The notes beneath the pieces were generated by a model. That model had not been told where the DNA came from. It was given only the letters and a program-made list of their open reading frames with translations, and ran no database searches. Of a stretch of 64,000 bases of DNA, positions 11,918-57,789 are shown piece by piece. The stretch is from NCBI GenBank assembly GCA_030705825.1, contig JAUZPR010000001.1, positions 17,772 through 81,771 of the forward strand, read 5' to 3'. This DNA comes from Bacillota bacterium (GTDB taxonomy: Bacteria > Bacillota > Clostridia > Acetivibrionales > JANLFN01). The position numbers and the translations under genes were made by a program. Positions within the stretch are counted from its first letter, which is position 1. Each line of letters opens with the position of its first letter.

Positions 11918-11993
11918 AACTCAACTTTTCCAAGTCAATGAAAGTGTATTTTCAGATATTTTTAATCAAGCTGATTTATACCGGGGGGATAAA

Positions 11994-14363: not shown

Positions 14364-14384
14364 TTTATATTTCGGAGGCTGTAA

Positions 14385-15560
14385 ATGAGGCGAAATCTTG
14401 TCAAGGGCTCGGTAACTGTAGAAGCATCATTGGTACTGCCAATTTTTATCGGTGCTGTACTGACTATAGTCTTTTTAATTAAGCTGGTATTCATTAATGA
14501 AGTGTTTCAGCATGCAATAAACGGAGCAGCCCATGAAATGGCTTCCACAAGCTATATTTATTATATATCCGGAGTAATGGGAATACATGATACAGTCAGA
14601 GACGGTTTGGAAAACGGTACTCAGGACATTAATAACAAAATTTCATCAATATCAGGGTTGGCCGACGGTCTGGAAAACCTGATTGGAAACGGGAATTCCG
14701 AGAACCAGGCCGAAAGTATAGATCAGCTGAAAAATAACTTTAATACCAGTCTTACAAATACAGCCGATGTTATTAATAACCCCTTGAAGTTTCTCAAGGA
14801 TGCAGCATGTCTCATAGCAGGAGGGGCTTTTGATGATTTGAAAAATGAACTGTGTATACCGGTTGTCAAGCTATATATGAAAAAGTACCTTTCCACTCCT
14901 GATATATCCTTTGAAAACAGAATCAAGGGGCTCAATATAGCAGGAGGTGCCGATGGGATTGATCTGAACAGCTCAAGCTTTTTTGAGGATGAAAAATGCA
15001 ATATTGATATTATTGTAAGGTATAAAGTGAATCTTCCCTTTCCCTTCAGAATTTTTAACGGCATAAATGTTGAACAAAGGGCAGTTGAAAGGGCATGGAC
15101 TTATGGAGATAAAGACAACGGTCCGACCGGAAAGGATGAACAGGAGGATGTATGGGCTCTTGGTAATCTGGAGAGGGGCCGGCTGATAAGAGAGAGATTC
15201 GGAGCAAACCTGCCGTTTGACTTTCCAGTTATAGCGGCATTTGACTCGGGAAAGGCTACAATGATAAAAAGCATGGATCTTACAACAGTTTATTATCAGA
15301 GCAGTTTTAATGTTAAGGACAAAATTTTAGACTATATCAATGAATTAAGGAAATTCAACGGCGGAAAGAGGGGCAGTGTTGAAATAGGTAGTACCGAAAT
15401 AACACAAAAGGTACTTAAACTTGTAATCCCGGAAAATGAGCTTAAGCAGGAAACAAATTCTGTGCTGGAGGAGTGCAGAGGAATTGCTGCAGGCTATGGT
15501 ATACAACTGGATATTAATAAGTACCAGACTAAAAAAACAAGTGATGAAAGCGGTGAATAG
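14385..15560 (+). CDS. TadE-like pseudopilin, long form
   Basis: The N-terminus MRRNLVKG|SVTVEASLVLPIFIGAVLTIVFLI has the same G/xxxxE pattern as 11240-11917. Confidence 0.6.
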   Translation: MRRNLVKGSVTVEASLVLPIFIGAVLTIVFLIKLVFINEVFQHAINGAAHEMASTSYIYYISGVMGIHDTVRDGLENGTQDINNKISSISGLADGLENLIGNGNSENQAESIDQLKNNFNTSLTNTADVINNPLKFLKDAACLIAGGAFDDLKNELCIPVVKLYMKKYLSTPDISFENRIKGLNIAGGADGIDLNSSSFFEDEKCNIDIIVRYKVNLPFPFRIFNGINVEQRAVERAWTYGDKDNGPTGKDEQEDVWALGNLERGRLIRERFGANLPFDFPVIAAFDSGKATMIKSMDLTTVYYQSSFNVKDKILDYINELRKFNGGKRGSVEIGSTEITQKVLKLVIPENELKQETNSVLEECRGIAAGYGIQLDINKYQTKKTSDESGE

Positions 15561-15563
15561 AAT

Positions 15564-16193
15564 ATGGAAAGTCTTCTGTTCCCGTTTATGGCAGTTATAT
15601 ATGCAAATCTTCTTTACAAAATAAATCTCATAGATGATTTGAAAAAAACAAGGTATATTAATTGGCTGTTTTCAGGCTTTTACAGCTCAGCAGAAGGTAT
15701 TGCCTGCGAAATTAGTGCTGCATTGTCGGCGGTGCTTTTGTTCAAAAGATATGGTATTACTGCAGAATGCATATTATATGCATTTATGTGCCAGATTCTT
15801 ATTACTGCTGCTATTCTGGAATTCAAAAATGAATTTTCCGCAAGGATAGAATTTATGGCAGCTGTAACAGCTACAGCGGCTTTTTTGATACGGTTGTGGG
15901 GATACGGCATATCCCTTCAGGAATCCATTTTGGGGATATTGGTCTCAGGAATATCCCTTTCTGTAATTTCGCTTCTTACCAAGGGCGGAGTCAATATTAA
16001 AGATATTATTCTCATCTCTTTTTCGGGTTATATTTTGGGGCTGCAGCAATCTCTTGAAGCCCTGCTTACAGCATCTGTCCTGTCTGCCGTGATATCTCTC
16101 GTGGGTATCGTTCGGGGCAGGTATGATAAAAAAAGCTCAATCCCCTTTGTAATTTTGTTTTACATAGGATACCTGTCTGTTCTTTGCATGTAA
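15564..16193 (+). CDS. A24-family prepilin peptidase-like membrane protein (CpaA/TadV-like)
   Basis: Polytopic, 209 aa. IDDLKKTRYINWLF resembles the first Asp box (D-x-R-x-R-x-I-P-N). NIKDIILISFSGYILG resembles the second (GxGDvKLlaalG). Confidence 0.55.
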   Translation: MESLLFPFMAVIYANLLYKINLIDDLKKTRYINWLFSGFYSSAEGIACEISAALSAVLLFKRYGITAECILYAFMCQILITAAILEFKNEFSARIEFMAAVTATAAFLIRLWGYGISLQESILGILVSGISLSVISLLTKGGVNIKDIILISFSGYILGLQQSLEALLTASVLSAVISLVGIVRGRYDKKSSIPFVILFYIGYLSVLCM

Positions 16194-18289: not shown

Positions 18290-19114
18290 ATGAGTAGAGC
18301 ATATGTGATGGAGGATATTATAGCAGAGACTGTTGAAAGCAGTGCAGCTAAAAATGTAAAAATTGAGATGGATAGTCTTGCAAAAAAATTTTTGGTTAGA
18401 AAAAAAGAAATAGTGGCATTTCATAATGTAAGCTTGAAAATACATGAGGGTGAGTTCTGGTGCTTTGTCGGACCAAGCGGGTGTGGAAAAACTACGCTGC
18501 TGAGAGTATTGGCAGGATTGGAGACCCCAACTTCAGGTACGCTTGCAATACATAGAAACAACCCTGAGAAGCCTTTAAACTCCATGGTGTTTCAGGAATA
18601 TGCCATATTTCCGTGGATGACTGTCTGGGATAATATTGCATACGGACTTAAAAACAGAAAGGTTGAACAGGCCATAATCCAGAGAAATGTATCTGAATAT
18701 GTTGAGAAAATGGGACTTCAAAAATTCGTTAAAGCCTATCCGCACCAACTTTCAGGAGGCATGAAGCAAAGGGTAAGTATCGCAAGGGCATTTGCCAACG
18801 ATGCTGAGATACTACTTATGGATGAACCCTTTGCTTCTCTTGATGAACAGAATAGAATGATTCTGCAGCAGGAGCTTCTTCAGATTTGGGAAAATAATAA
18901 AAAGACAGTGGTTTTTATTACACACAGTATAGGAGAGGCAATCTTTCTGTCTGACCATATAATGGTTATGACAGGCCATCCAGGAGAGATTAAGGACGTA
19001 CTTGATGTTAAGCTTCCAAGGCCCAGAAATATGACGGAATTGCGTTCAAAACCGGTATTCAACATACTTTTTTCAAATATATGGTCGGAAATCAAGGAAG
19101 AAGTTACCAGATAA
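18290..19114 (+). CDS. ABC transporter ATP-binding protein (SsuB/TauB-type)
   Basis: Walker A GPSGCGKTT, signature LSGGMKQR, Walker B ILLMDEPFASLD. Confidence 0.85.
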   Translation: MSRAYVMEDIIAETVESSAAKNVKIEMDSLAKKFLVRKKEIVAFHNVSLKIHEGEFWCFVGPSGCGKTTLLRVLAGLETPTSGTLAIHRNNPEKPLNSMVFQEYAIFPWMTVWDNIAYGLKNRKVEQAIIQRNVSEYVEKMGLQKFVKAYPHQLSGGMKQRVSIARAFANDAEILLMDEPFASLDEQNRMILQQELLQIWENNKKTVVFITHSIGEAIFLSDHIMVMTGHPGEIKDVLDVKLPRPRNMTELRSKPVFNILFSNIWSEIKEEVTR

Positions 19115-19248
19115 AAAAGCAAAAACAAGTACAATCAAAAGTTAAGTAATTTGTTATAACAATGGCACTTAAAACAAATAATAAAATTAGGAATATCAAA
19201 ACCTTTTGGTGTTTATGGATATTTAAAATATGTACGGGAGATGATGCT

Positions 19249-19428
19249 TTGAATAGGGAAAGAGCAAAAGAAATAATGGAATCCCAGGGAATCATACAGG
19301 TACTGTACGGGAGTTCACCTGTTTGGATAGAGGATTTAAATGGTGATAACGCCCAGGTATCCTATATCGGCTCTAATAACAGAATACAAGTACCTCTGAA
19401 TAAATTGAATGAGACCCATCCTATGTAG
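19249..19428 (+). CDS. sspH: Small acid-soluble spore protein, SspH family
   Basis: MNRERAKEIMESQGIIQVLYGSSPVWIEDLNGDNAQVSY matches the SspH pattern (RAKEIxES...V.Y.G.PV.I). The in-frame TTG at 19249 gives the family-typical ~59 aa, so the track ATG 19162 extension is unlikely. Confidence 0.7.
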   Translation: MNRERAKEIMESQGIIQVLYGSSPVWIEDLNGDNAQVSYIGSNNRIQVPLNKLNETHPM

Positions 19429-19447
19429 ACATGCAAAATAATAAAAA

Positions 19448-19518
19448 GGGACTGCCTGAAGAAACTCACGGATAAGGATTATCCATCATCCGTTAAAATT
19501 CTCAGGAGTCCCTTTTTT
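19448..19518 (+). terminator. Compound hairpin terminator after sspH
   Basis: GGGACTGCCTGAAG (19448-19461) pairs with CTCAGGAGTCCC (19501-19512), followed by TTTTTT. An inner hairpin is ACGGA...TCCGT. Confidence 0.6.
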
Positions 19519-19644
19519 ATTGGACTATAAGTGGGAAAGTTGAATTATTAACTTAATTTACAATATGATATAATATGGTGGTAACCAAACGGGCAAATAA
19601 GGCTGAAAATATGAGAACAAATTTGGACAATCAGGGGTGTTATA

Positions 19645-19998
19645 ATGAAATTACACGAGATTATTGAAATATTAAAAGCTGAGGTCCTGACCGGAGACAG
19701 AGAGTCACAAATGGAAATACTCTCGGCATGTGGTTCAGACCTTATGAGTGATGTAATGGCATATGTAAAAGATAATGTTCTTTTACTGACAGGTCTGATT
19801 AACCCACAAGTGATAAGGACGGCAGAAGTTATGGACATAAAGGTTGTAGCTTTTGTAAGAGGAAAAATTCCAGATTCAAATATTCTCGAACTGGCCAGAG
19901 AAAAAGATATAACGGTAATCAGAACGGAATATCCGATGTTTATAGCATGCGGAAAGCTTTACAAGGCAGGAATAACCGGAAGAGGTGCGGATTGTTGA
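19645..19998 (+). CDS. DRTGG domain protein
   Basis: 117 aa. ACGSDLMSDVM...LLLTGLINPQVIRTAEVMDIKVVAFVRGK is the DRTGG-type pattern. It is the first gene of the hydrogenase-associated module. Confidence 0.7.
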   Translation: MKLHEIIEILKAEVLTGDRESQMEILSACGSDLMSDVMAYVKDNVLLLTGLINPQVIRTAEVMDIKVVAFVRGKIPDSNILELAREKDITVIRTEYPMFIACGKLYKAGITGRGADC

Positions 19999-20423
19999 GC
20001 GAGAATCTGATTAATCTCTACTATGTTATAAATGCAAATGACTTTTCGGCTGCCGGTGAAGCATCGGGCAATGTAAAAAAGAAGCTCGTACAGCTGGGTA
20101 TAGATCCTGCAATAATAAAAAAAACTGCAATTTCAATGTATGAAGCCGAAATGAATGCATTTATTCACGCCAATGGCGGAGAGATAAATGTTGAGATAAG
20201 CAATAACAGAATAGTTATTGTAATATCAGACAAAGGTCCCGGAATAGCCGATCTGGATCTGGCTATGAAAGAAGGTTACTCCACAGCTTCCGACAAGGTG
20301 AGGGAAATGGGATTCGGCGCCGGAATGGGCCTTCCCAATATAAAAAGATACTCAGATGAACTGGATATACAAACAGAAGTAGGAAAAGGAACGACGGTAA
20401 GAATTATAGTTTATATAAATTAG
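19995..20423 (+). CDS. RsbW/SpoIIAB-like HATPase_c protein (anti-sigma-factor-type Ser/Thr kinase fold)
   Basis: TTG 19995 overlaps the upstream TGA (TTGA). N-box EAEMNAFIHAN, G1 DKGPGI, G2 GFGAGMGL. Confidence 0.7.
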   Translation: MSENLINLYYVINANDFSAAGEASGNVKKKLVQLGIDPAIIKKTAISMYEAEMNAFIHANGGEINVEISNNRIVIVISDKGPGIADLDLAMKEGYSTASDKVREMGFGAGMGLPNIKRYSDELDIQTEVGKGTTVRIIVYIN

Positions 20424-20777
20424 GTTCATAGTTCATAGTTCAGAGTTCGGAGTTAGGAGTTCAGAGTTCGGAGTTGAGAGTTCAGAGTTCGGGGTTTAGA
20501 GTTTAGAGTTCGGAGTTTAGAGTTCAGAGTCCGGGGTTCAGAGTCCAGAGTTCGAAGCTTTGTAAGTTAAAGTTCATGGTTTGGAGTTTGTAGATTTTAG
20601 AATAACTAAAGTTCGGTTTTATTGGTCGTGATAGTGTTAGCGTTCAGAGTTAGGGGTTGCAATTAAATGTTATGAGTTTAGTATTAATAGCTAAAAGAGT
20701 AATTTAAAAGCTTAAACTCTCAACTCCAAACTTTCAACCCTCAACCCTCAACCATCAACCATCAACTCCGAACTTGA
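20424..20777 (+). repeat. Inverted heptamer-array element A
   Basis: 19 phase-perfect heptamers GTTNNRA (units start at 20424 and then every 7 nt through 20550). Degenerate copies continue to ~20660. Nine heptamers AACNNNN (mostly AACYCTC) at 20715-20777 are reverse-complement types. The SD AGGAGG lies at 20779. Confidence 0.9.
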
Positions 20778-20790
20778 CAGGAGGTTTACA

Positions 20791-22125
20791 ATGGGGACAT
20801 ATTTTCACTCGGTAACTTTAAATGAAGAAAAATGCAGGGGCTGTACCAACTGTATCAAACGGTGCCCTACTGAAGCTATCCGGGTAAGAAAGAGTAAAGC
20901 GCGTATTATTAATGAAAGATGTATAGACTGCGGTGAATGCATCAGAATATGTCCGTATCATGCAAAAAATGCCATAACAGATAAACTTGAAACGATAAAT
21001 TCGTATAAATATAAAGTAGTTATACCTGCCCCATCCTTATATGGGCAGTTTAAGACCATGTACACCAGAAATCATATTCTTACGGCATTGAAGCAGCTCG
21101 GGTTCGATGAGGTTTTTGAAGTCGCAAGAGCTGCCGAGATTGTAAGTGACGCCACAAGAAAGCTGATAGGAAAGGGAGAATTGAAAAAGCCGGTTATTTC
21201 TTCTGCTTGCCCGGCTGTTGTAAGATTGATACAGGTTAGATACCCAAATCTTATTGATAATATTCTAAAGCTGGAATCTCCAATGGAGGTTGCGGCCAAA
21301 ATAGTTAAAAACAAGGTATTGCATGAGAAAAAATTGGATCCTGCCGATATAGGCGTATTCTTTCTGACACCGTGTGCCGCCAAGGCAACAAGTGTAAAAG
21401 CTCCTTACGAAATGGAAAAATCAAATGTAGATGGTGTAATATCTATTAAGGATATTTATTTAAAGCTTTTGTATTTGCTGGAACATGGAACAAGTACTGA
21501 ACAACTTGAAACAGCAGGTTTTGAAGGAATAAGATGGGCTAACCCGGGTGGTGAAAGCCTTGCACTTAACACCGAAAAATTTCTGGCTGTTGACGGAATT
21601 CACAACGTAATTACAATTCTTGAAGAAATAGAAAATGATAAGCTGGAGGATGTTGAATTTATAGAGGCACTTGCCTGCAGCGGAGGTTGCCTTGGTGGAC
21701 CGCTTACCGTAGAAAATGCATACGTTGCAAAAACCAAATTGAAAAAGCATATAGACCAGGCAAAACAAAAGGGTATTGAGGTAGGTCAGACAGATAAGCT
21801 TGACGATGATTTGGTCTGGACAGGCAACATTGAATACAAGCCTGTTATGAAGCTTGACAGTGATTTTGCAAAAGCAATGAAAATGCTTGAGGATCTGGAA
21901 TCAATAAATAATATTCTGCCGGGGTTGGACTGTGGCGCATGCGGCGCACCAAGCTGCAGAGCTCTTGCAGAAGATATAGTCAGGGGTATCGCAAACGAAA
22001 CCGATTGTATTTTCAAGCTCAGGGAAAAAGTCAGAGACCTTGCTTCCCAGATGATAGAGCTGGAAGCAAAAATGCCTCCGGTTCTGGACAGGGAAAATGA
22101 CGACAAACAGGAACAGGAGAGTTGA
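20791..22125 (+). CDS. [FeFe]-hydrogenase-like protein, putative sensory type (2x[4Fe-4S] ferredoxin + Fe_hyd_lg_C + C-terminal Fe-S domain)
   Basis: CRGCTNCIKRCP and CIDCGECIRICP. H-cluster-type motifs SSACP, TPCAAK and ALACSGGCLGGP. The C-terminal LPGLDCGACGAPSCRALAEDI is an RnfB/pfam04060-like Fe-S motif. Confidence 0.75.
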   Translation: MGTYFHSVTLNEEKCRGCTNCIKRCPTEAIRVRKSKARIINERCIDCGECIRICPYHAKNAITDKLETINSYKYKVVIPAPSLYGQFKTMYTRNHILTALKQLGFDEVFEVARAAEIVSDATRKLIGKGELKKPVISSACPAVVRLIQVRYPNLIDNILKLESPMEVAAKIVKNKVLHEKKLDPADIGVFFLTPCAAKATSVKAPYEMEKSNVDGVISIKDIYLKLLYLLEHGTSTEQLETAGFEGIRWANPGGESLALNTEKFLAVDGIHNVITILEEIENDKLEDVEFIEALACSGGCLGGPLTVENAYVAKTKLKKHIDQAKQKGIEVGQTDKLDDDLVWTGNIEYKPVMKLDSDFAKAMKMLEDLESINNILPGLDCGACGAPSCRALAEDIVRGIANETDCIFKLREKVRDLASQMIELEAKMPPVLDRENDDKQEQES

Positions 22126-22126
22126 A

Positions 22127-22501
22127 ATGACAGTAAGAGAGTTGACTGAAAAATTAAACTTGAAACCGGTTACTGCCAAAGCCGGACTGGACAAGCAAGT
22201 AACAGGGCTATATATATGTGACCTCTTAAGTTGGGTAATGTCCCATGCCGGCAGCAGCAATGCATGGATTACTGTACTCACAAATCTTAATACAGTTGCC
22301 GTTGCACTGCTGACCGAGATTTCCTGCATAATCATTCCTGAAGGTATAAAAGCAGAAGAGACAATGGTCAAAAGAGCTGAAACTGAAGACATCGCAGTAC
22401 TTGAAACCGATGACGATGCATACAGCATATGCTGCAAAGCGTACAAAGCGGGAATAGGTAAGGCAGTTGATAGTAGAAAATTGTTGACAGTTGATAGATG
22501 A
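22127..22501 (+). CDS. DRTGG domain protein (second copy)
   Basis: ATG 22127 lies after SD AGGAGAG. YICDLLSWVM...WITVLTNLNTVAVALLTEISCIIIPEG is paralogous to 19645-19998. The last ~7 codons lie inside heptamer array B. Confidence 0.7.
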   Translation: MTVRELTEKLNLKPVTAKAGLDKQVTGLYICDLLSWVMSHAGSSNAWITVLTNLNTVAVALLTEISCIIIPEGIKAEETMVKRAETEDIAVLETDDDAYSICCKAYKAGIGKAVDSRKLLTVDR

Positions 22502-22645
22502 CAATTGACAGTTAAAAACAGCTGAGAATACGTTTTTTTAAAATATTAGTTACATTTATTATATAATTATACGGATGGAGTAGAACCCCATCCCTACTTT
22601 TAAGTTGGTTCAACTGTACACTGTCCTCTGTCAACTGTCAACTAA
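22480..22645 (+). repeat. Inverted heptamer-array element B
   Basis: The left array is ATTGTTG ACAGTTG ATAGATG ACAATTG ACAGTTA AAAACAG (22480-22521). The right array is CAACTGT ACACTGT CCTCTGT CAACTGT CAACTAA (22611-22645), the exact complement family. A central GGATGG/CCATCC hairpin lies at ~22573-22593. Confidence 0.85.
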
Positions 22646-22657
22646 TTAGAGGTGTTT

Positions 22658-23374
22658 ATGAAATTTGCAACTGATCTTCATATCCATTCAGCATTATCAC
22701 CATGTGCGGATAAGGATATGACTCCAAATAACATAGTTAATATGGCAAGATTAAAAGCCTTGGATATAATCGCGGTAACCGATCATAATTCGGCTGAAAA
22801 CATTGAAGCAGTGCTCTCATGCTGCGAAGGCTCGGATGTTTTGACTATTCCGGGAATGGAGATAGAAACAAGGGAGGAAGTACATTTGATTTGTCTTTTC
22901 CCGGACCTTGAGTCGGTTCTTGCAATGCAGAAGAAAGTTTATGATGCACTTCCCGGTTTTAAAAATAATGAAAAAATATTCGGTGAGCAAATCATATTTA
23001 ACAGCAGTGATGAAATTACAGGCAGTGTGGATCAGCTGTTGCTTACAGCAACAAGACTCAGTCTTGAGGAAACAGTATTAAATGTATTAGAATTGGGTGG
23101 GGCAGTGATACCTGCTCATATCGACCGGAATTCCTACAGCATATTATCCAATCTTGGCGGAATTCCTGAAAATCTTAATATTAGGTGGCTGGAAGTCTCC
23201 AGGGGAGGCGATAGGGAAAAATTACTGAAGGAAGTTGATTATTTGTCAAAATATTTCCTATTAACATCTTCCGATGCACACTCTCTGGAAAATATTCTGG
23301 AACGTGAAAATTTTATTGAACTTAGTAATAAGACTGTTGAGAGTCTTTTATGTACCTTACGTAATGGATATTGA
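22658..23374 (+). CDS. PHP-domain (polymerase/histidinol-phosphatase-like) metal-dependent phosphoesterase
   Basis: DLHIHSALSPC, AVTDHNS, PAHIDR and TSSDAHS metal-ligand motifs. ATG 22658 after GAGG. Confidence 0.75.
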   Translation: MKFATDLHIHSALSPCADKDMTPNNIVNMARLKALDIIAVTDHNSAENIEAVLSCCEGSDVLTIPGMEIETREEVHLICLFPDLESVLAMQKKVYDALPGFKNNEKIFGEQIIFNSSDEITGSVDQLLLTATRLSLEETVLNVLELGGAVIPAHIDRNSYSILSNLGGIPENLNIRWLEVSRGGDREKLLKEVDYLSKYFLLTSSDAHSLENILERENFIELSNKTVESLLCTLRNGY

Positions 23375-23492
23375 AAATTTAAAAGGAAATGCTGAAATAG
23401 TAACATTAGTACTACCATTTCTTTGACAAAATCCCTTTTGTTAAAAAAATCAAATTCAAAACAATAAATGCTTTGCTTTTTTGTTATCTGTA

Positions 23493-23521
23493 TTGAATGT
23501 TTTACGAAAATTTGTTATAAT
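23493..23521 (+). promoter_or_regulatory. Promoter of the hydrogenase operon
   Basis: TTGAAT (23493-23498), a 17-nt spacer, then TGT-TATAAT (extended -10, 23513-23521). Confidence 0.65.
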
Positions 23522-23529
23522 GTTAACGA
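23512..23529 (+). promoter_or_regulatory. Rex (redox-sensing repressor) operator 1
   Basis: TTGTTATAATGTTAACGA compared with the clostridial Rex consensus TTGTTAAnnnnTTAACAA. It overlaps the -10. Confidence 0.65.
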
Positions 23530-23532
23530 AAT

Positions 23533-23550
23533 TTGTTAAATACTTAACAC
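23533..23550 (+). promoter_or_regulatory. Rex operator 2
   Basis: TTGTTAAATACTTAACAC matches TTGTTAAnnnnTTAACAA at 13 of 14 specified positions. Confidence 0.7.
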
Positions 23551-23602
23551 ATCTTACGGACAATCACAAAAAATTACATCTTTTATTGGGAGGTTGTATT
23601 CA

Positions 23603-24103
23603 ATGGGTGACAATATGTGCTGCTGCGGGTCTGCTGACGTAATGGACCAGAAGCTGCAGGAAATCATTGAGAGGTACAAGGATACCAATGGCGCACTAAT
23701 TCCGGTTTTGCACGAAGCTCAGGAGTTGTACGGATACCTGCCTATGGAAGTTCAGATGAAAATATCTGAAGGGCTTGGTATTACTCTTTCTGAGATATAT
23801 GGGGTCGTGACATTCTATACCCAGTTTTCATTGAAGCCAAAGGGAAAAAACAGAATATCGGTTTGTCTGGGTACAGCATGTTATGTTAAAGGCGCAAACC
23901 ATATCCTTGATAAACTTAAGGAGAAGCTGGGAATAGAAGTTGGTGACTGCACCGAGGATGGAAAATTCTCGCTTGATGCTTGCAGATGTATAGGCGCATG
24001 TGGCCTTGCACCTGTTATGATGATCAATGACGATGTTTATGGGAGACTGACTCCGGATGAAATAGAAGGTATAATCGAGAAGTATAAAAACAGGCAGGAC
24101 TAA
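23603..24103 (+). CDS. hydC: NADH-linked [FeFe]-hydrogenase, NuoE-like [2Fe-2S] subunit
   Basis: CLGTACYVKG...CRCIGACGLAPVMMIND is the thioredoxin-like 2Fe-2S pattern. ATG 23603 lies 9 nt after GGGAGG. Confidence 0.85.
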   Translation: MGDNMCCCGSADVMDQKLQEIIERYKDTNGALIPVLHEAQELYGYLPMEVQMKISEGLGITLSEIYGVVTFYTQFSLKPKGKNRISVCLGTACYVKGANHILDKLKEKLGIEVGDCTEDGKFSLDACRCIGACGLAPVMMINDDVYGRLTPDEIEGIIEKYKNRQD

Positions 24104-24675
24104 TGAGAGATCTGTCGTTGCATTTATTGGACATTTTACAGAATTCTATTTCAGCAAAAGCGGACAATGTTTCCATAGAATTGGCGGTAGATACCAGTAC
24201 TGACAAGCTTGCATTGAAAATAGCAGATAATGGTATAGGGATGAATGAAAAATTGTTAAAAAGTGTGACCGACCCATTTACCACTACCCGAACCAGCAGG
24301 AAGGTTGGGTTGGGTATATCCCTTCTTAAAGCATCGGCTGAAAGAGCTGGTGGAGAACTAATGATCCAATCGTCTGAGGGGAATGGTACCACAATAAGTG
24401 CAAACTTCAGTATTTCAAATATAGACAGGCTGCCACTGGGTGATTTGACTGAAACAATTTGCAGCATAATTGCTGCCTATATGGAAATTGAAATCGATTT
24501 AACCCTTATAAATGGCAGTAAAACATTCCAATTTAGTACAATTGAAATTAAAAAACAGATTAGCGGTATTCCAATAAATCATTATGATGTGCTTGAGTGG
24601 ATCAGGGAATTCATAAATGAAGGAATAACCACCATATTTGGAGGTGTTTTGAATGAAATCGTTAGCGGAACTTGA
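24103..24675 (+). CDS. Histidine-kinase-like ATPase (HATPase_c only) embedded in the hydrogenase operon
   Basis: LLDILQNSISA (N-box-like), DNGIGM (G1), GLGISL (G2). There is no HisKA or sensor domain. ATGA overlap with hydC. Confidence 0.7.
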   Translation: MRDLSLHLLDILQNSISAKADNVSIELAVDTSTDKLALKIADNGIGMNEKLLKSVTDPFTTTRTSRKVGLGISLLKASAERAGGELMIQSSEGNGTTISANFSISNIDRLPLGDLTETICSIIAAYMEIEIDLTLINGSKTFQFSTIEIKKQISGIPINHYDVLEWIREFINEGITTIFGGVLNEIVSGT

Positions 24676-25039
24676 AGAAATCAGAAAAAAGGCTCTGGAC
24701 AAAATAAATATAAGAAAAGAGAATAACGGAGTAAGAATAGTGGTAGGTATGGCCACCTGTGGAATAGCAGCAGGAGCAAGGCCTGTAATGAACACCATTG
24801 TTGAAGAACTGAAAAAAAGAAATATCAATGATGTAACAGTTACAATGACCGGATGTATCGGTGTATGCAGACTGGAACCCATAGTTGAGGTTCTGGATCC
24901 CGACGGAAGCAGAGTTACTTATGTCAATATGACTCCTGAAAAAGCTCAGCATATTGTTTCCGAGCATATAGTCAATGGTAGGATTTGTTTGGATTATACG
25001 ATTGGTGAAGTAGAAAAAAAGGAAAAAAGTAAAGCTTAA
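24653..25039 (+). CDS. Thioredoxin-like [2Fe-2S] ferredoxin subunit
   Basis: GMATCGIAAGA...TGCIGVCRLEP. 128 aa. It overlaps the upstream gene by 23 nt. Confidence 0.75.
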   Translation: MKSLAELEEIRKKALDKINIRKENNGVRIVVGMATCGIAAGARPVMNTIVEELKKRNINDVTVTMTGCIGVCRLEPIVEVLDPDGSRVTYVNMTPEKAQHIVSEHIVNGRICLDYTIGEVEKKEKSKA

Positions 25040-25052
25040 AGGGGGGTAAAAA

Positions 25053-26852
25053 ATGCAGATATATAGATCTCATGTTCTTGTATGCGGCGGAACAGGCTGT
25101 ACTTCATCAAATTCTGAAAAGATTATCAAAGAATTTGAAGTGCAATTAAGTAAGGAGAAAATAGATAATGAAGTCAAGGTTGTTAAAACCGGATGCTTCG
25201 GCTTGTGTGCACAAGGCCCGGTAGTTGTTGTGTATCCGGAAGGCGCAATGTATACCATGGTTAAGGTAGAAGATGTCAAGGATATAGTATCCGAGCATCT
25301 GGTAAAAGGTAGGATTGTAAAAAGACTGCTGCCCAAGGATAACATGGATATAGACAAGGACGATGCTTCGCTGGAAAAGGTTGAATTTTTCAAGAAACAG
25401 GTAAGGATTGCCTTGAGAAACTGCGGAGTCATAAACCCTGAAGATATAGATGAATATATAGCATTCGACGGTTACAAGGCACTTGGTAAAGTATTGACCG
25501 AAATGACACCCGATCAGGTTATTGATTCCGTTAAGAAATCGGGTTTGAGGGGAAGAGGGGGCGGAGGTTTCCCAACCGGTCTGAAATGGGAGTTTACCGC
25601 AAAATCTCAAAACCAGCAGAAATATGTTTTGTGTAACGCCGATGAAGGAGATCCTGGAGCATTCATGGACAGAAGTGTCCTGGAGGGTGATCCCCACTCG
25701 GTAATAGAGGCAATGACTATTGCAGGCTATGCTGTAGGGGCAAGCCAGGGTTATATATATGTAAGGGCTGAATATCCGATAGCCGTAAAAAGACTTCAGA
25801 TAGCAATAAAACAGGCCAAGGAGTATGGCCTTTTAGGTAACAATATATTTGATTCGGGTTTTAGCTTTGACCTGGAGATAAGACTTGGTGCAGGAGCATT
25901 TGTCTGTGGTGAGGAAACTGCTCTTATGACTTCAATAGAAGGTAAAAGAGGAGAACCAAGACCAAGACCTCCATTCCCGGCTGTAAAGGGATTATGGCAG
26001 AAGCCGACACTGCTTAACAATGTTGAGACCTATGCCAATATTCCGGTAATATTCCTAAAAGGTGCAGAATGGTTTGCAAGTATAGGAACTGCAAAGAGCA
26101 AGGGAACCAAGGTATTCGCATTAGGTGGAAAAATCAATAATACCGGGCTTGTAGAAGTTCCTATGGGTACAACCATGAGAGAAGTAATTTACGAAATAGG
26201 CGGAGGAATACCTAACGGCAAGAAGTTCAAAGCCGCCCAGACAGGCGGACCTTCAGGCGGCTGTATTCCGGCAAGCCATATCGATGTTCCCATAGATTAT
26301 GATTCGCTGATAGAACTGGGTTCCATGATGGGCTCAGGCGGACTTATCGTAATGGATGAAGATAACTGTATGGTGGATATAGCAAAATTCTTCCTTGAAT
26401 TTACTGTGGATGAATCCTGTGGTAAATGTCCTCCGTGCAGAATCGGTACAAAGAGAATGCTCGAGATTCTTGAGAGAATAACCGACGGAAAAGGTGAAGA
26501 AGGGGATATCGAGAAGCTGGAAATACTTGCGAAGAACATCAAGGCTTCCGCTCTGTGCGGCCTCGGACAGACAGCTCCTAATCCGGTCTTGAGTACTCTC
26601 AGGTATTTCAGGAACGAGTATGAAGCGCATGTAAAGGATAAGAAGTGTCTTGCAGGCGTATGCAAATCCCTGATGCGCTATGTAATCCAGCCGGATGCAT
26701 GTAAAAAGTGCGGAATTTGTGCGAGAAACTGTCCGGTTAACTGTATAGAAGGCGACAAGACAAAAGCTTATGTTATAGATCAGGAAAAGTGCATCAAATG
26801 CGGAACATGTATGGAAAAATGTCCATTTAAAGCAATATTCAAAAATGCGTAA
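25053..26852 (+). CDS. hydB: NADH-linked [FeFe]-hydrogenase, NuoF-like FMN/NADH-binding subunit
   Basis: GRGGGGFPTGLKW, CGKCPPCR, and a C-terminal 2x[4Fe-4S] (CKKCGICARNCP, CIKCGTCMEKCP). Confidence 0.9.
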   Translation: MQIYRSHVLVCGGTGCTSSNSEKIIKEFEVQLSKEKIDNEVKVVKTGCFGLCAQGPVVVVYPEGAMYTMVKVEDVKDIVSEHLVKGRIVKRLLPKDNMDIDKDDASLEKVEFFKKQVRIALRNCGVINPEDIDEYIAFDGYKALGKVLTEMTPDQVIDSVKKSGLRGRGGGGFPTGLKWEFTAKSQNQQKYVLCNADEGDPGAFMDRSVLEGDPHSVIEAMTIAGYAVGASQGYIYVRAEYPIAVKRLQIAIKQAKEYGLLGNNIFDSGFSFDLEIRLGAGAFVCGEETALMTSIEGKRGEPRPRPPFPAVKGLWQKPTLLNNVETYANIPVIFLKGAEWFASIGTAKSKGTKVFALGGKINNTGLVEVPMGTTMREVIYEIGGGIPNGKKFKAAQTGGPSGGCIPASHIDVPIDYDSLIELGSMMGSGGLIVMDEDNCMVDIAKFFLEFTVDESCGKCPPCRIGTKRMLEILERITDGKGEEGDIEKLEILAKNIKASALCGLGQTAPNPVLSTLRYFRNEYEAHVKDKKCLAGVCKSLMRYVIQPDACKKCGICARNCPVNCIEGDKTKAYVIDQEKCIKCGTCMEKCPFKAIFKNA

Positions 26853-26870
26853 AGGAAGGGGAGTGTTTAT

Positions 26871-28619
26871 ATGGAAATGGTAAATATAACGATAGATGAC
26901 AGGAAGCTCCAGGTTCCAAAGAACTATACCGTCTTGGAAGCTGCCAGGTATGCGAATATAGCTATTCCTACACTTTGCTTCCTAAAGGATATAAACGAGA
27001 TCGGTGCCTGCAGAATGTGCGTAGTAGAGGTGCAGGGAGCAAGAAGCCTGCAGGCGGCTTGTGTTTTCCCGGTTTCAGAGGGCTTGGTCATATCCACAAA
27101 ATCGCCGGCGGTAAGAGAAGCCAGAAAGGTTACACTTGAACTTATCCTGTCCAACCATGACAGGAAATGCCTGACCTGTGTCAGGAGCAGAAGCTGTGAA
27201 CTTCAAAAGCTGGCTGAAGACTTGAATATCAAGGATATACGTTTTGAAGGTGAAGCTTCAAAGCATCCTATTGATAATTTCTCCCCGTCCATAGTAAGGG
27301 ATCCCAACAAATGTGTATTGTGCAGACGCTGCGTAAGCATGTGCAAGAATGTACAGGGAGTAGGAGTTATCGATACCAATGAAAGAGGCTTTAATACAAT
27401 AGTATCCTCGGCTTTTAATAAATCCTTGAACAGCGTACCCTGTACAATGTGCGGACAGTGTATAGCGGTTTGTCCCGTAGGCGCCCTGAAGGAAAAGGAT
27501 GATACCGACAAGGTTTGGGAGGCTCTCTCAAACAAGGATCTTCATGTTGTAGTACAAACAGCACCTGCAGTAAGGGTAGCTCTTGGTGAAGAATTCGGAA
27601 TGCCTATAGGTTCAAGGGTTACAAGCAATATGATTGCTTCGTTGAGAAGGCTGGGCTTTAAAAAGGTATTTGATACAGATACTGCTGCCGACCTTACAAT
27701 TATGGAGGAAGGAACCGAGCTGATAGACAGGCTGAAAAACGGGGGGAAGCTGCCCTTGATAACCTCCTGCAGCCCCGGATGGATTAAATTCTGTGAACAC
27801 AATTATCCCGAATTCATAGACAATCTCTCTTCGTGCAAATCTCCGCACGAAATGTTCGGTGCGGTTTTGAAGTCCTATTATGCCGAAAAAGAGGGAATAG
27901 ACCCGGCAAAGGTATTTGTAGTATCCATAATGCCGTGTACTGCAAAGAAGTATGAAGCTAAAAGACCTGAGCTATCATCTACCGGTTATCCTGATGTAGA
28001 TGTTGTTCTTACAACAAGAGAGCTTGCAAAAATGATTAAGGAAGCGGCAATTGACTTTACCGAGCTGCCTGAGAGACATTTTGACGATCCCATGGGTGAA
28101 GCAACAGGTGCCGGTGTTATTTTCGGCGCAACAGGTGGCGTAATGGAGGCTGCCTTAAGGACAGTGGTAGAGATTCTGGAAGGAAAATCCTTTGATAAAA
28201 TAGAGTATAATGCTGTCAGAGGTATAGATGGTATCAAGGAGGCAGTTGTCGAGGCAGGCGGGTATAAAATAAAGGCTGCCGTTGCACATGGCCTTGGAAA
28301 TGCCAGAAAGTTACTGGACAGGATTAAAGCAGGCGAAGCTCAGTATGATTTCATAGAAATCATGGCTTGCCCAGGAGGATGCGTAAATGGCGGAGGACAG
28401 CCTATTCAGCCTTCATATGTAAGAAGCTGGGTTGACCTGAGAAGTGAACGTGCCAAGGCTATATATGAAGAGGAAAGGGATCTGCCTATCAGGAAGTCCC
28501 ACGAAAATCCAAGAATACAGATGCTGTACAAGGAATACTTCGGAGAGCCGGGCAGCCATAAGGCTCATGAGCTTCTGCATACGCATTATGAGCAGAAAGA
28601 GAAATACCCTGAGAAATAG
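26871..28619 (+). CDS. hydA: [FeFe]-hydrogenase catalytic subunit
   Basis: N-terminal 2Fe-2S and 4Fe-4S domains. H-cluster motifs TSCSPGW, MPCTAKKYE and EIMACPGGCVNGGGQP. Confidence 0.9.
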   Translation: MEMVNITIDDRKLQVPKNYTVLEAARYANIAIPTLCFLKDINEIGACRMCVVEVQGARSLQAACVFPVSEGLVISTKSPAVREARKVTLELILSNHDRKCLTCVRSRSCELQKLAEDLNIKDIRFEGEASKHPIDNFSPSIVRDPNKCVLCRRCVSMCKNVQGVGVIDTNERGFNTIVSSAFNKSLNSVPCTMCGQCIAVCPVGALKEKDDTDKVWEALSNKDLHVVVQTAPAVRVALGEEFGMPIGSRVTSNMIASLRRLGFKKVFDTDTAADLTIMEEGTELIDRLKNGGKLPLITSCSPGWIKFCEHNYPEFIDNLSSCKSPHEMFGAVLKSYYAEKEGIDPAKVFVVSIMPCTAKKYEAKRPELSSTGYPDVDVVLTTRELAKMIKEAAIDFTELPERHFDDPMGEATGAGVIFGATGGVMEAALRTVVEILEGKSFDKIEYNAVRGIDGIKEAVVEAGGYKIKAAVAHGLGNARKLLDRIKAGEAQYDFIEIMACPGGCVNGGGQPIQPSYVRSWVDLRSERAKAIYEEERDLPIRKSHENPRIQMLYKEYFGEPGSHKAHELLHTHYEQKEKYPEK

Positions 28620-28656
28620 TAATAAAGATTACTAAGATAAAATAAATAAGTTTTGA

Positions 28657-28694
28657 ATAAGGTTGAAACCTTTAAGGTTTCAACCTTATTTTTT
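28657..28694 (+). terminator. Rho-independent terminator after hydA
   Basis: ATAAGGTTGAAACC pairs with GGTTTCAACCTTAT, followed by TTTTT. Confidence 0.85.
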
Positions 28695-28759
28695 GACTGT
28701 ATCCAATGCGTTAAATATGCTAAAATATAGAAAAGAGCTTATATCCGGGGGATAGATGA

Positions 28760-29938: not shown

Positions 29939-29955
29939 TAAAGGAGCCAACCTAA

Positions 29956-57712: not shown

Positions 57713-57789
57713 GTACTTGAAATTGATAACATTTTTTTGTATAATTGTAATAATATCTTTTTAAAGAATACTAAATAATATAAATACAA

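What the first reader, a model, noticed from the sequence alone, without database searches (positions are those of the whole stretch)
20791..22125. The hydrogenase-like protein keeps the H-cluster cysteines but replaces the proton-relay Cys and carries an RnfB-type Fe-S tail instead of PAS
Seen in sequence: the L1-type motif reads SSACP where the canonical form is TSCCP, so the first Cys is Ala and the second, the cluster ligand, is kept. L2 reads TPCAAK, with the Cys and Lys kept. L3 reads ALACSGGCLGGP, with both Cys kept but GGGQP degenerated.

Loss of the relay cysteine is what I recall being reported for putative sensory [FeFe] hydrogenases (HydS type). This protein, however, has no PAS domain. 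It ends with LPGLDCGACGAPSCRALAEDI, the Fe-S motif of RnfB N-termini and CODH/ACS subunits.

Inference: it is a sensor or slow-turnover variant that signals through partner proteins rather than through its own output domain.
Basis: partly seen in the sequence, partly recalled or inferred. Interest (0 to 1): 0.55.

Follow-up and report, generated by a model that had tools for sequence, protein, structure and literature searches.

The report
Group D sensory-type [FeFe] hydrogenase
This gene encodes an ordinary member of an already described class of hydrogenase-like proteins (Group D / M2e "HydS") that are thought to sense hydrogen rather than produce it; its conserved neighbour genes suggest which proteins might receive the signal.

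Summary
ORF 20791-22125 (+, 444 aa) has two N-terminal [4Fe-4S] motifs, an H-domain with all four H-cluster cysteines and Ala at the proton-relay position (SSACP), a C-terminal Cx2Cx4Cx16C Fe-S motif (PF04060), and no PAS domain.

This is not a new architecture. It is the published M2e / phylogenetic Group D [FeFe] hydrogenase. The protein is 55% identical over its full length to the characterised TamHydS. It shares that group's signatures: M353->Thr, M497->Leu, and the alternative Glu-based proton path E255/E292/D268.

The Fe-S tail does not replace PAS. PAS-containing Group C HydS proteins carry the same motif.

The gene lies upstream of an electron-bifurcating-type HydABC operon, as reported for Cthe_0335 and TTE0887.

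Beyond the finding, a five-gene cassette is conserved in roughly 92-99% of 80 related genomes: DRTGG, RsbW-like kinase, HydS, DRTGG, PHP phosphoesterase. Some relatives have HydS naturally fused to DRTGG or to the kinase. These proteins are the best candidates for the unknown signal output.

Verdict: a new member of a known kind, of low-to-moderate interest.

The parts
20791..22125 (+). hydS-type gene: Group D (M2e) [FeFe] hydrogenase-like protein, 444 aa
   Evidence: ORF and translation. Pfam architecture. 55% identity to TamHydS over the full length, E 2e-170. A 100% identical protein, P0001, is annotated in a Bacillota MAG.
20815..20964 (+). N-terminal F-domain: two CxxCxxCxxxCP [4Fe-4S] motifs (C15/18/21/25 and C44/47/50/54)
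   Evidence: Pfam Fer4 families at aa 9-58. The eight Cys are conserved in 118-136 of 137 representatives. R31, R33, K36 and K59 correspond to TamHydS R30, R32, K35 and K58.
21013..21702 (+). H-domain (Fe_hyd_lg_C), shortened relative to Group A
   Evidence: Pfam PF02906 at aa 75-304, E 7e-39. The AF2 model has pLDDT 70-94 over most of this region, and all top Foldseek PDB hits are [FeFe] hydrogenases with TMq 0.54-0.63.
21199..21213 (+). L1/P1 motif SSACP: A139 replaces the proton-relay Cys (CpI C299); C140 is the cluster ligand (C300)
   Evidence: Alignments. TamHydS has A137 at this position (PMC11803613). The column is Cys in only 1 of 137 relatives.
21367..21384 (+). L2/P2 motif TPCAAK: T193 (CpI M353), C195 (C355), K198 (K358)
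   Evidence: Thr or Ser occupies this position in 118 of 137 relatives. A hydroxyl residue here is a stated M2e hallmark (PMC8163306).
21553..21666 (+). Group D alternative proton path: E255, D268, E292 (TamHydS E252, D265, E289); P252 at the position of TamHydS S249
   Evidence: Alignment to TamHydS using the numbering of PMC10407848. Conserved in 100, 94 and 124 of 137 relatives respectively.
21667..21702 (+). L3/P3 motif ALACSGGCLGGP: L294 (CpI M497), C296 (C499), C300 (C503)
   Evidence: TamHydS has L291 at the M497 position.
21916..22014 (+). C-terminal Fe-S domain, Cx2Cx4Cx16C (C381, C384, C389, C406), flanked by D380, D405 and E394-D395
   Evidence: PF04060 E 2e-13. The same motif and the same acidic residues (D378, D403, E392, D393) occur in TamHydS, where it binds a [4Fe-4S] cluster (PMC13104023). 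The four Cys are conserved in 131-133 of 137 relatives.
19645..19998 (+). DRTGG-domain protein 1 (117 aa), first gene of the conserved cassette
   Evidence: Pfam PF07085 E 5e-7. Present upstream of hydS in 70 of 72 related loci. Has a conserved 'CGSDLMSDV' motif. Fused to the N-terminus of HydS in P0134 and P0178.
19947..20423 (+). RsbW/SpoIIAB-like GHKL Ser-kinase/ATPase (HATPase_c_2). The true start is probably near 19995.
   Evidence: Pfam PF13581 and PF02518. Best PDB hits are anti-sigma F factor SpoIIAB, E 1e-6. Present upstream in 71 of 72 loci. N-box and G-boxes are conserved. Fused to HydS in P0154, a cluster seen in 7 members across independent assemblies.
22097..22501 (+). DRTGG-like protein 2. 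The conserved part starts at Met11 (nt 22127), 1 nt after the hydS stop codon.
   Evidence: Weak Pfam DRTGG and Hpr_kinase_N hits. Present downstream in 69 of 74 loci. Fused to the C-terminus of HydS in 7 representative clusters; one of these clusters has 80 members.
22652..23374 (+). PHP-family metal-dependent phosphoesterase (240 aa)
   Evidence: Pfam PF02811. Present downstream in 68 of 74 loci. All PHP metal-ligand motifs are conserved: D8-H10-H12, D44-H45, E70, H78, H156, D208-H210.
23512..23550 (+). Two adjacent Rex-operator-like sites upstream of hydC/nuoE, overlapping a -10-like TATAAT
   Evidence: These are two of the three best matches in the window to TTGTTAANNNNTTAACAA, with 2 and 1 mismatches. 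Exact boxes sit at the same place, or upstream of DRTGG1, in 8 related loci. The consensus is recalled from my own knowledge (Ravcheev et al. 2012).
23594..28619 (+). hydC(nuoE) - HATPase_c - [2Fe-2S] ferredoxin - hydB(nuoF) - hydA: Group A multimeric NADH-linked/bifurcating-type [FeFe] hydrogenase operon, the presumed regulatory target
   Evidence: Pfam and NCBIfam. HydA scores 937 bits against NF040763, 'NADH-dependent [FeFe] hydrogenase, group A6', above its cut-off of 765. This operon lies within 8 kb downstream of the cassette in 34 of 54 assessable loci.

Best explanation
The gene encodes an orthologue of the Group D (subclass M2e) [FeFe] hydrogenases typified by TamHydS of Thermoanaerobacter mathranii.

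Shown by sequence: it has every ligand for an H-cluster, for two N-terminal [4Fe-4S] clusters and for a C-terminal Cx2Cx4Cx16C [4Fe-4S] cluster. It lacks the whole Group A proton-transfer pathway: C299, E279, S319, E282 and R286 become A139, A121, L159, K124 and K128. In its place it keeps the Group-D-specific Glu/Asp path (E255, E292, D268).

Transferred from TamHydS biochemistry: such proteins bind the [2Fe] subsite, turn over H2 only slowly, have raised H2 affinity, stabilise the reduced H-cluster, and change secondary structure on H2 exposure.

Inferred: the protein reports H2 partial pressure or redox state by a conformational change rather than by catalysis. Having no PAS domain, it passes the signal to the proteins encoded with it in a conserved five-gene cassette. 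These are two DRTGG-domain proteins, an RsbW/SpoIIAB-like serine kinase/ATPase and a PHP phosphoesterase. The cassette is likely a kinase/phosphatase (partner-switching-like) module. It ultimately tunes the adjacent HydABC-type hydrogenase, whose promoter region also carries Rex-like operators.

My probabilities for each step:
- membership of Group D, about 0.95;
- a sensory or regulatory rather than bulk catalytic role, about 0.6;
- the cassette proteins being the direct signalling partners, about 0.4.
For: Architecture and motifs:
- Pfam architecture and motif positions.
- Positional equivalence of the H-cluster ligands to CpI, DdH and the HydA in this window.
- 55% identity to TamHydS over the full length, E 2e-170, against 24% to the Group A HydA in the same window.
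- Group D hallmark residues are present and conserved across 137 representatives. Their definitions are in PMC8163306, PMC10407848, PMC11803613 and PMC13104023.
- The predicted H-domain has the [FeFe] hydrogenase fold.

Context:
- The gene lies upstream of a trimeric/tetrameric NADH-linked hydrogenase operon, as reported for the M2e genes Cthe_0335, TTE0887, Csac_1857 and Teth39_1463 (PMC3561251).
- Cassette conservation in 80 species-level genomes: kinase 71/72, DRTGG1 70/72, DRTGG2 69/74, PHP 68/74.
- The cassette also occurs without HydABC nearby, for example in L001.
- Natural fusions exist: HydS-DRTGG, DRTGG-HydS and kinase-HydS. They are reproducible across independent assemblies.
- ATP-binding motifs in the kinase and metal-binding motifs in the PHP protein are conserved.
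Against: - No experiment has shown an in vivo sensory role for any Group D enzyme.
[quoted passage not shown] The route of any signal is therefore unknown.
- The cassette encodes no DNA-binding protein, so the final output is unidentified.
- DRTGG domains have no established biochemical function.
- P252 replaces the moderately conserved Ser/Thr of the alternative proton path (consensus Ser).
- The AF2 model is of low confidence (pLDDT <50) in both terminal Fe-S domains. I could not test the N-terminal to C-terminal domain contact reported for TamHydS.
- I did not build an explicit tree that includes Group C sequences.
Confidence: 0.7

Rival explanations
1. It is a genuine but slow catalytic hydrogenase. 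It could act as an alternative H2-evolving or H2-oxidising module, or as an electron-entry subunit working with HydABC. On this view the neighbouring kinase and phosphoesterase regulate it rather than receive a signal from it.
For: - TamHydS catalyses H+/H2 interconversion near the thermodynamic potential (PMC8163306).
- Two N-terminal [4Fe-4S] clusters form a standard electron relay.
- An intact, conserved alternative proton path argues that proton-coupled turnover is under selection.
- The gene is adjacent to hydABC in 34 of 54 loci.
Against: - Measured rates for TamHydS are low, comparable to the Group C sensor TmHydS.
- About 37% of loci have the cassette without hydABC within 8 kb. L001 has unrelated neighbours.
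- The PDB chain names returned for the solved HydABC complexes (entries 7q4v/7q4w, 8a6t, 7p5h) were HydA and HydB only; no HydS-type chain was among the hits.
- Linkage and fusion are to signalling-type domains, not to redox partners.
Confidence: 0.2
2. It is an Fe-S redox sensor that does not carry the [2Fe] subsite in vivo. It would be a Nar1/NARFL-like 'hydrogenase-like' protein responding to ferredoxin or NADH redox state rather than to H2.
For: - No native Group D protein has been isolated with its cofactor; TamHydS was matured artificially.
- The relay Cys and both active-site Met residues are lost.
- The module co-occurs with Rex-like operators, which points to redox control.
Against: - All four H-cluster Cys are nearly invariant and K358 is kept in about 70% of 137 diverse relatives, along with a Group-D-specific proton path to the adt bridgehead. 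That path would be pointless without the [2Fe] site.
- TamHydS takes up [2Fe]adt spontaneously and reacts with H2.
- The genome encodes a Group A HydA, so by inference it needs HydEFG maturases. I did not search for them.
Confidence: 0.07
3. It is a truncated or decayed Group C (PAS-containing) HydS that has lost its output domain and is on its way to being a pseudogene.
For: It shares the N-terminal clusters, the loss of C299 and the Cx2Cx4Cx16C motif with Group C.
Against: - The roughly 440-aa PAS-less form is a large, old and well-conserved family. The word-index search returned 8000 hits, which is its cap. There are 618 50%-identity clusters with E<1e-30, and at least 587 species genomes hold a relative.
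- The median length is 439 aa.
- It has its own signature residues (M353->S/T, E252), which PMC10407848 reports as not conserved in Groups A, B or C.
Confidence: 0.02

Closest known systems
TamHydS (Thermoanaerobacter mathranii), Group D / subclass M2e [FeFe] hydrogenase
   Same: - 55% identity over the full length.
- Identical domain order: 2x[4Fe-4S], H-domain, Cx2Cx4Cx16C, no PAS.
- Ala at C299, a hydroxyl residue at M353, Leu at M497.
- The Glu/Asp alternative proton path.
- Conserved Arg/Lys residues around the N-terminal clusters and Asp/Glu residues around the C-terminal cluster.
- Encoded upstream of a multimeric Group A hydrogenase, next to a histidine-kinase-like ATPase.
   Different: - 45% of residues differ.
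- Thr rather than Ser at the M353 position.
- Pro rather than Ser at the TamHydS S249 position.
- Lys rather than Glu at TamHydS E122.
- The source is a mesophile-like, 39% GC Bacillota MAG, not Thermoanaerobacter.
- Nothing has been measured for this protein.
M2e genes listed in comparative genomics: Cthe_0335 (C. thermocellum), TTE0887, Csac_1857, Athe_1292, Cphy_3798, Teth39_1463 (Calusinska 2010; Carere 2012, PMC3561251)
   Same: The same class and the same position, a few genes upstream of the trimeric bifurcating-type hydrogenase with kinase genes in between. They were already labelled 'sensory, no PAS/PAC domain'. The closest named relatives here are Hungateiclostridiaceae-type organisms: Pseudobacteroides, Acetivibrio and Herbivorax.
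   Different: Those papers did not describe the DRTGG and PHP cassette members or the fusions. I did not align those specific locus tags.
Group C (M2f) HydS: TmHydS, R. albus HydS, T. saccharolyticum HfsB
   Same: Two N-terminal [4Fe-4S] clusters, loss of the relay Cys and of the canonical proton path, and the same C-terminal Cx2Cx4Cx16C cluster. They are linked to Ser/Thr kinase and phosphatase genes and to bifurcating hydrogenases. Genetic evidence for a regulatory role exists for hfsB.
   Different: Group C proteins have a C-terminal PAS domain; this protein has none. TmHydS has Gly and Ser at M353 and M497, against Thr and Leu here. The E252-type proton relay is reported as not conserved in Groups A, B or C.
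Prototypical Group A [FeFe] hydrogenases (CpI, DdHydAB, CrHydA1, and the HydA at 26871-28619 in this window)
   Same: The H-domain fold and the four H-cluster Cys plus Lys358.
   Different: About 24% identity. The relay Cys, both Met residues and the whole proton pathway are replaced. The H-domain is about 55 residues shorter, and the GGGQP loop is shortened. NCBIfam scores are far below the Group A and B1 cut-offs: 126 against 406 and 149 against 450.
RsbW/RsbV and SpoIIAB/SpoIIAA partner-switching modules, and the regulatory [NiFe] hydrogenase HoxBC-HoxJ
   Same: These are analogies for the inferred mechanism: a small GHKL Ser-kinase paired with small alpha/beta partner proteins and an opposing phosphatase, or an H2-sensing hydrogenase that controls a kinase.
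   Different: The cassette has no STAS domain and no PP2C phosphatase. DRTGG proteins and a PHP phosphoesterase stand in their place. No sigma factor or response regulator is encoded in the cassette. The resemblance is functional speculation, not homology of the whole system.

Membership tests
[FeFe] hydrogenase Group D (subclass M2e, 'HydS' without PAS) | Domain order: N-terminal 2x[4Fe-4S] F-domain, then H-domain, then C-terminal Cx2Cx4Cx16C motif | tested here: met
   Pfam finds Fer4 at aa 9-58, Fe_hyd_lg_C at 75-304 and PF04060 at 376-408. The motif is C381-x2-C384-x4-C389-x16-C406. The definition is in PMC8163306.
[FeFe] hydrogenase Group D (subclass M2e, 'HydS' without PAS) | Absence of a PAS domain, which distinguishes it from Group C / M2f | tested here: met
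   No PAS family at E<=0.01. Only about 38 residues follow the last Cys, too few for a PAS fold. All 120 listed close homologues have the same Pfam set.
[FeFe] hydrogenase Group D (subclass M2e, 'HydS' without PAS) | All four H-cluster Cys ligands retained, while the relay Cys (CpI C299) and the rest of the Group A proton pathway are not conserved | tested here: met
   C140, C195, C296 and C300 align to C300, C355, C499 and C503. A139, A121, L159, K124 and K128 lie at C299, E279, S319, E282 and R286.
[FeFe] hydrogenase Group D (subclass M2e, 'HydS' without PAS) | A hydroxyl residue (Ser/Thr) at CpI M353; M497 variable (Leu in TamHydS) | tested here: met
   T193 and L294. Ser or Thr occupies the M353 column in 118 of 137 relatives. 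The feature is stated in PMC8163306.
[FeFe] hydrogenase Group D (subclass M2e, 'HydS' without PAS) | Group-D-specific alternative proton pathway: E252, E289, S249, D265 (TamHydS numbering) | tested here: met
   E255, E292 and D268 are present. The moderately conserved S249 position is Pro252 here.
[FeFe] hydrogenase Group D (subclass M2e, 'HydS' without PAS) | Phylogenetic placement in the Group D clade | tested here: inconclusive
   Only similarity was measured: 55% identity over the full length to TamHydS against 24% to a Group A HydA. No tree with Group B, C or E-G references was built, because I could not obtain a Group C sequence.
[FeFe] hydrogenase Group D (subclass M2e, 'HydS' without PAS) | Genomic association with a multimeric Group A (bifurcating-type) hydrogenase and kinase genes | tested here: met
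   hydC-HATPase-fdx-hydB-hydA lies 1.5 kb downstream, and an RsbW-like kinase lies upstream. The same holds in 34 of 54 and 71 of 72 related loci. Matches PMC3561251.
[FeFe] hydrogenase Group D (subclass M2e, 'HydS' without PAS) | Biochemical behaviour: binds [2Fe]adt, low turnover, stabilised Hred, low CO sensitivity | not testable with these tools
   Known only for TamHydS. It requires expression, artificial maturation, and FTIR, EPR and electrochemistry.
[FeFe] hydrogenase Group C (M2f, PAS-containing HydS) | A C-terminal PAS domain after the Cx2Cx4Cx16C motif | tested here: not met
   No PAS hit; the protein ends 38 residues after C406.
[FeFe] hydrogenase Group A (prototypical/bifurcating) and Group B1 | Score above the NCBIfam curated cut-offs; TSCCP relay Cys; MPC and MAC methionines | tested here: not met
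   TIGR02512 scores 126.5 bits against a cut-off of 406. TIGR04105 scores 148.6 against 450. NF040763 scores 111 against 765. The motifs read SSACP, TPC and LAC.
RnfB (Rnf complex subunit B) | An N-terminal PF04060 Fe-S domain followed by ferredoxin-like domains; whole-protein score above the TIGR01944 cut-off | tested here: not met
   PF04060 is present but at the C-terminus, after an H-domain. TIGR01944 scores 67.0 bits against a cut-off of 68.7, in two separate stretches. Only the Fe-S module is shared.

The most novel reading that the evidence does not exclude
The conserved cassette DRTGG, RsbW-like kinase, HydS, DRTGG, PHP phosphoesterase may be the missing output device of Group D H2 sensors, described nowhere in the searched literature.

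In this reading, HydS docks the DRTGG proteins; in some lineages it is covalently fused to them or to the kinase. H2-dependent conformational change then gates phosphorylation of a DRTGG serine by the GHKL kinase. The candidate serine lies in the invariant DLMS/DLLS motif. The PHP enzyme resets the switch.

This would be a new type of partner-switching relay, in which DRTGG replaces STAS and PHP replaces PP2C. It would control bifurcating hydrogenase expression or activity together with Rex.
Probability: 0.3. Interest if true: 0.55.

Novelty: new member of a known kind. Interest (0 to 1): 0.27.

Why it matters
The protein adds nothing new to hydrogenase classification. The class, its PAS-less architecture and its position upstream of bifurcating hydrogenases have been in the literature since 2010-2012, and one member has been studied in detail since 2019.

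How Group D enzymes transmit a signal, or whether they sense at all, remains open. The authors of the TamHydS work say so explicitly.

The near-universal cassette and the reproducible natural fusions found here name concrete interaction partners that could be tested. Relatives of this protein occur in genetically tractable, biotechnologically relevant cellulolytic clostridia. Control of H2 against ethanol formation has practical value there.

Tried and rejected
- An apparent 769-aa triple fusion in L057, and long ORFs in L043 and L061, turned out to be open reading frame extended upstream of, or past, the real gene. They carry no extra domains. None of the 80 genome loci has a true fusion; fusions were found only among the metagenome representatives.
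- The promoter and terminator consensus scan of 19000-29000 gave counts at the level of shuffled controls and was uninformative.
- A literature search for DRTGG plus hydrogenase found nothing relevant. A broader search on gene neighbourhood, anti-sigma and PHP was too unspecific to use.
- The look-up of encoding contigs cannot take proteins from the representatives search, so I checked that the fusions are reproducible with the listing of cluster members instead.
- The AF2 model, built from a 47-sequence alignment at 70-80% identity, reached only mean pLDDT 68, with both terminal Fe-S domains below 50. I used it only for the H-domain fold match. I did not use it to test the N-terminal to C-terminal domain contact reported for TamHydS.
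- The TamHydS sequence was taken from a machine-read supplement. It has a few OCR errors: 434 instead of 435 aa, one lost Glu and duplicated Gly residues. I reconciled the numbering using the published residue numbers.
- I considered whether the heptamer repeat arrays upstream of hydS were a conserved regulatory leader. They are absent from the 80 related loci, so I treat them as a genome-specific element.
- Rfam finds no known RNA family in the cluster.
Full report
**1. The observation**

The ORF at 20791-22125 on the + strand is real. It encodes 444 aa, starts at ATG, and has a GGAGG Shine-Dalgarno sequence 6 nt upstream.

Pfam finds:
- a 4Fe-4S dicluster domain at aa 9-58;
- the [FeFe] hydrogenase H-domain, Fe_hyd_lg_C, at aa 75-304 (E 7e-39);
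- PF04060 'putative Fe-S cluster' at aa 376-408 (E 2e-13);
- no PAS domain.

- SSACP, aa 137-141;
- TPCAAK, aa 193-198;
- ALACSGGCLGGP, aa 293-304;
- LPGLDCGACGAPSCRALAEDI, aa 376-396.

Residue equivalences rest on HMMER alignments to solved structures (CpI, D. desulfuricans HydAB, HDCR HydA2) and on BLASTP against the Group A HydA encoded 5 kb downstream in the same window. A139 falls on the CpI proton-relay Cys299, C140 on ligand Cys300, C195 on Cys355, K198 on Lys358, and C296/C300 on Cys499/Cys503.

The protein does not end at the Fe-S motif. The fourth ligand is C406, so the motif is Cx2Cx4Cx16C, and a predicted helix follows.

**2. What the protein is**

The literature held in the library describes this architecture exactly:
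- Land et al. 2019 (PMC6984386) and 2020 (PMC8163306) define subclass M2e, which is phylogenetic Group D. It has two N-terminal [4Fe-4S] motifs, the H-domain, a C-terminal Cx2Cx4Cx16C motif and no PAS domain. The relay Cys and the entire Group A proton pathway are not conserved. M353 is replaced by a hydroxyl residue.
- PAS-containing Group C enzymes (M2f, such as TmHydS) carry the same C-terminal four-Cys motif between the H-domain and PAS.

The Fe-S tail is therefore a shared feature of both putative sensor groups. It is not a substitute for PAS.

I recovered the TamHydS sequence from the 2019 supplement. The window protein aligns to it end to end at 55% identity, E 2e-170. Against the Group A HydA of the same window the identity is 24%.

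Using published TamHydS residue numbers, every Group D hallmark is present:
- A139 corresponds to TamHydS A137 (CpI C299).
- T193 corresponds to S191 (M353).
- L294 corresponds to L291 (M497).
- The canonical pathway residues E279, S319 and R286 are A121, L159 and K128.
- The Group-D-specific alternative proton relay is E255, E292 and D268 (TamHydS E252, E289 and D265).
- Only the moderately conserved S249 differs; it is P252 here.
- The charged residues reported to surround the accessory clusters also match: R31, R33, K36, K59, D380, E394, D395 and D405.

NCBIfam scores are far below the curated cut-offs for Group A and Group B1.

An AlphaFold2 model is confident only in the H-domain. That part matches [FeFe] hydrogenase structures exclusively, with TMq 0.54-0.63. 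No Group C or D structure appeared among the 50 listed Foldseek PDB matches.

**3. How common it is**

The identical protein is already in NCBI from a Bacillota MAG, annotated generically.
- The exhaustive search of 50%-identity representatives found 618 clusters at E<1e-30.
- A scan of one genome per species found at least 587 genomes with a relative. They are mostly Clostridia but include Spirochaetes MAGs (L057, L060, L071).

Across 137 sequences (135 representatives 34-56% identical to the query, plus the query and TamHydS):
- the four H-cluster Cys are present in 134-136;
- the C-terminal four Cys in 131-133;
- Ser/Thr at the M353 position in 118;
- the E252 and E289 equivalents in 100 and 124;
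- the C299 column is Cys in a single sequence.

**4. Genomic context**

The gene sits in a co-directional cluster spanning 19645-28619. In order, the genes are:
- a DRTGG protein;
- an RsbW/SpoIIAB-like GHKL kinase;
- hydS;
- a second DRTGG-like protein, whose conserved start lies 1 nt after the hydS stop codon;
- a PHP phosphoesterase;
- nuoE-like hydC, an HATPase_c protein, a [2Fe-2S] ferredoxin, nuoF-like hydB, and a Group A hydA that passes the NCBIfam 'NADH-dependent [FeFe] hydrogenase' cut-off.

Carere et al. 2012 (PMC3561251) list the same arrangement. Examples are Cthe_0335 five genes before Cthe_0340-0342, and TTE0887 before TTE0892-0894. They already call these 'monomeric sensory hydrogenases' that lack PAS/PAC. 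The architecture and its context are therefore known.

**5. What I could add**

I ran tblastn with the window's neighbour proteins against the 80 fetched loci. The five-gene cassette is almost invariant:
- the kinase is upstream in 71 of 72 assessable loci;
- DRTGG1 is upstream in 70 of 72;
- DRTGG2 is downstream in 69 of 74;
- PHP is downstream in 68 of 74.

The HydABC operon follows within 8 kb in only 34 of 54 loci. In L001, the closest genome relative, the cassette stands among unrelated genes.

Ten of the longer proteins among the representatives were scanned, and all carry extra domains from the neighbour genes:
- HydS-DRTGG, seven clusters;
- DRTGG-HydS, two clusters;
- RsbW-like kinase-HydS, one cluster.

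None has PAS. These fusions recur across independent assemblies. One cluster has 80 members on contigs up to 515 kb, and one includes an NCBI record (MCB6993385.1, 'bacterium 210820-DFI.6.37'). They are not single-read artefacts.

The kinase keeps its N-box and G-box ATP-binding motifs. The PHP protein keeps the full set of metal ligands. Both DRTGG proteins share an invariant D-L-[ML]-S motif. A full-text search found no paper connecting DRTGG domains with hydrogenases.

**6. Mechanism**

Shown by sequence: the protein has the ligand set for an H-cluster plus three [4Fe-4S] clusters. The fast Group A proton pathway is replaced by the Group D Glu pathway.

Transferred from TamHydS: spontaneous uptake of [2Fe]adt, low turnover, higher H2 affinity, a stabilised reduced state, an H2-induced change in secondary structure, and a C-terminal cluster that H2 does not reduce.

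Inferred: the protein reports H2 or redox state by conformational change to the cassette proteins. These form a kinase/phosphoesterase switch acting on, or with, the DRTGG proteins. The output reaches the bifurcating-type hydrogenase.

The weak points are:
- there is no in vivo evidence for any Group D member;
- the cassette has no DNA-binding component;
- the biochemistry of DRTGG domains is unknown.

The main rival is that the protein is a slow but real catalytic module. TamHydS's reversible catalysis and the conserved proton path keep this rival alive. The frequent absence of hydABC nearby, and the exclusive linkage to signalling domains, weaken it.

**7. Verdict**

It treated as unusual what is the defining architecture of a known group, and it misread the Fe-S tail as a replacement for PAS.

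This is a new, uncharacterised member of a known kind. Interest is low to moderate. The only forward-looking element is the cassette and fusion evidence, which makes the open question of Group D signal transduction experimentally approachable.

Noticed in passing
window 20424-20553 and 20715-20775; 22483-22513 and 22610-22643; 62143-62229 and 62316-62384: Three intergenic regions carry paired, mutually complementary arrays of tandem heptamers: GTTCAGA x18.6 facing TCAACCA-type repeats, GTTGACA x4.4 facing TCAACTG x4.9, and AGTTAAG x5.6 facing its complement. Each pair brackets the spacer between two co-directional genes.

The first pair has 60-nt arms that are 78% complementary. It fills the unusually long 367-nt gap before hydS and ends 6 nt before its RBS. 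The RNA fold has MFE -100 kcal/mol and z -3.7. The arrays are absent upstream of hydS in 80 related loci, and there is no Rfam hit. This looks like a genome-specific repeat element of unknown function.
   Followed up: partly
window 23512-23529 and 23533-23550; loci L003, L006, L007, L018 (upstream of DRTGG1) and L011, L017, L029, L053 (upstream of nuoE): Two adjacent Rex-operator-like sites (2 and 1 mismatches to TTGTTAANNNNTTAACAA) lie in the 219-nt gap before hydC/nuoE and overlap a TATAAT box. They are two of only three matches with <=2 mismatches in the 64-kb window (0.97 expected).

Exact consensus boxes occur in 8 of the 80 related loci, always just upstream of either the sensor cassette or nuoE. 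This suggests redox (NADH/NAD+) control by Rex alongside the HydS cassette. The consensus is from my own knowledge, not from a tool.
   Followed up: partly
proteins P0127, P0131, P0188, P0190, P0247, P0254, P0264 (HydS-DRTGG); P0134, P0178 (DRTGG-HydS); P0154 (RsbW-like kinase-HydS): These are natural fusions of Group-D-type HydS with the domains encoded by its neighbour genes. They are reproducible across independent assemblies, with clusters of up to 80 members. None has PAS. This is Rosetta-stone evidence for physical partnership.
   Followed up: yes
window 24103-24675: A 190-aa HATPase_c-only protein, with no HisKA or sensor domain, is encoded between hydC and the [2Fe-2S] ferredoxin gene inside the hydrogenase operon. 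It is conserved wherever the HydABC genes follow the cassette (37-58% identity in the loci). It is a second orphan GHKL ATPase in the cluster, and its role is unknown.
   Followed up: no
window 22097-22501 and 19947-20423: The mechanical ORF starts are probably too far upstream. Conservation of DRTGG2 begins at Met11 (nt 22127), 1 nt after the hydS stop, which implies translational coupling. Conservation of the RsbW-like protein begins near residue 24, so its start probably abuts the DRTGG1 stop near 19995.
   Followed up: partly
window 11240-16193: Upstream of an ABC transporter lies a Tad/Flp-pilus-like set: a TadE-like protein and a 789-aa protein with DUF5702 and a TadE/G-like domain. It is followed by a 391-aa protein with a CDI-toxin EC869-like restriction-endonuclease domain and a 209-aa ORF with no Pfam hit, possibly a toxin/immunity pair.
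   Followed up: no
window 57780-58024: A T-box leader (Rfam RF00230, 125 bits, above the gathering score) lies upstream of the ORFs at 58144-59789.
   Followed up: no
window 28760-30603: A HisKA_3 histidine kinase and a LuxR/GerE-type response regulator lie immediately downstream of hydA, followed by an FtsX-like permease. This looks like a separate two-component/ABC module rather than part of the hydrogenase cluster.
   Followed up: no
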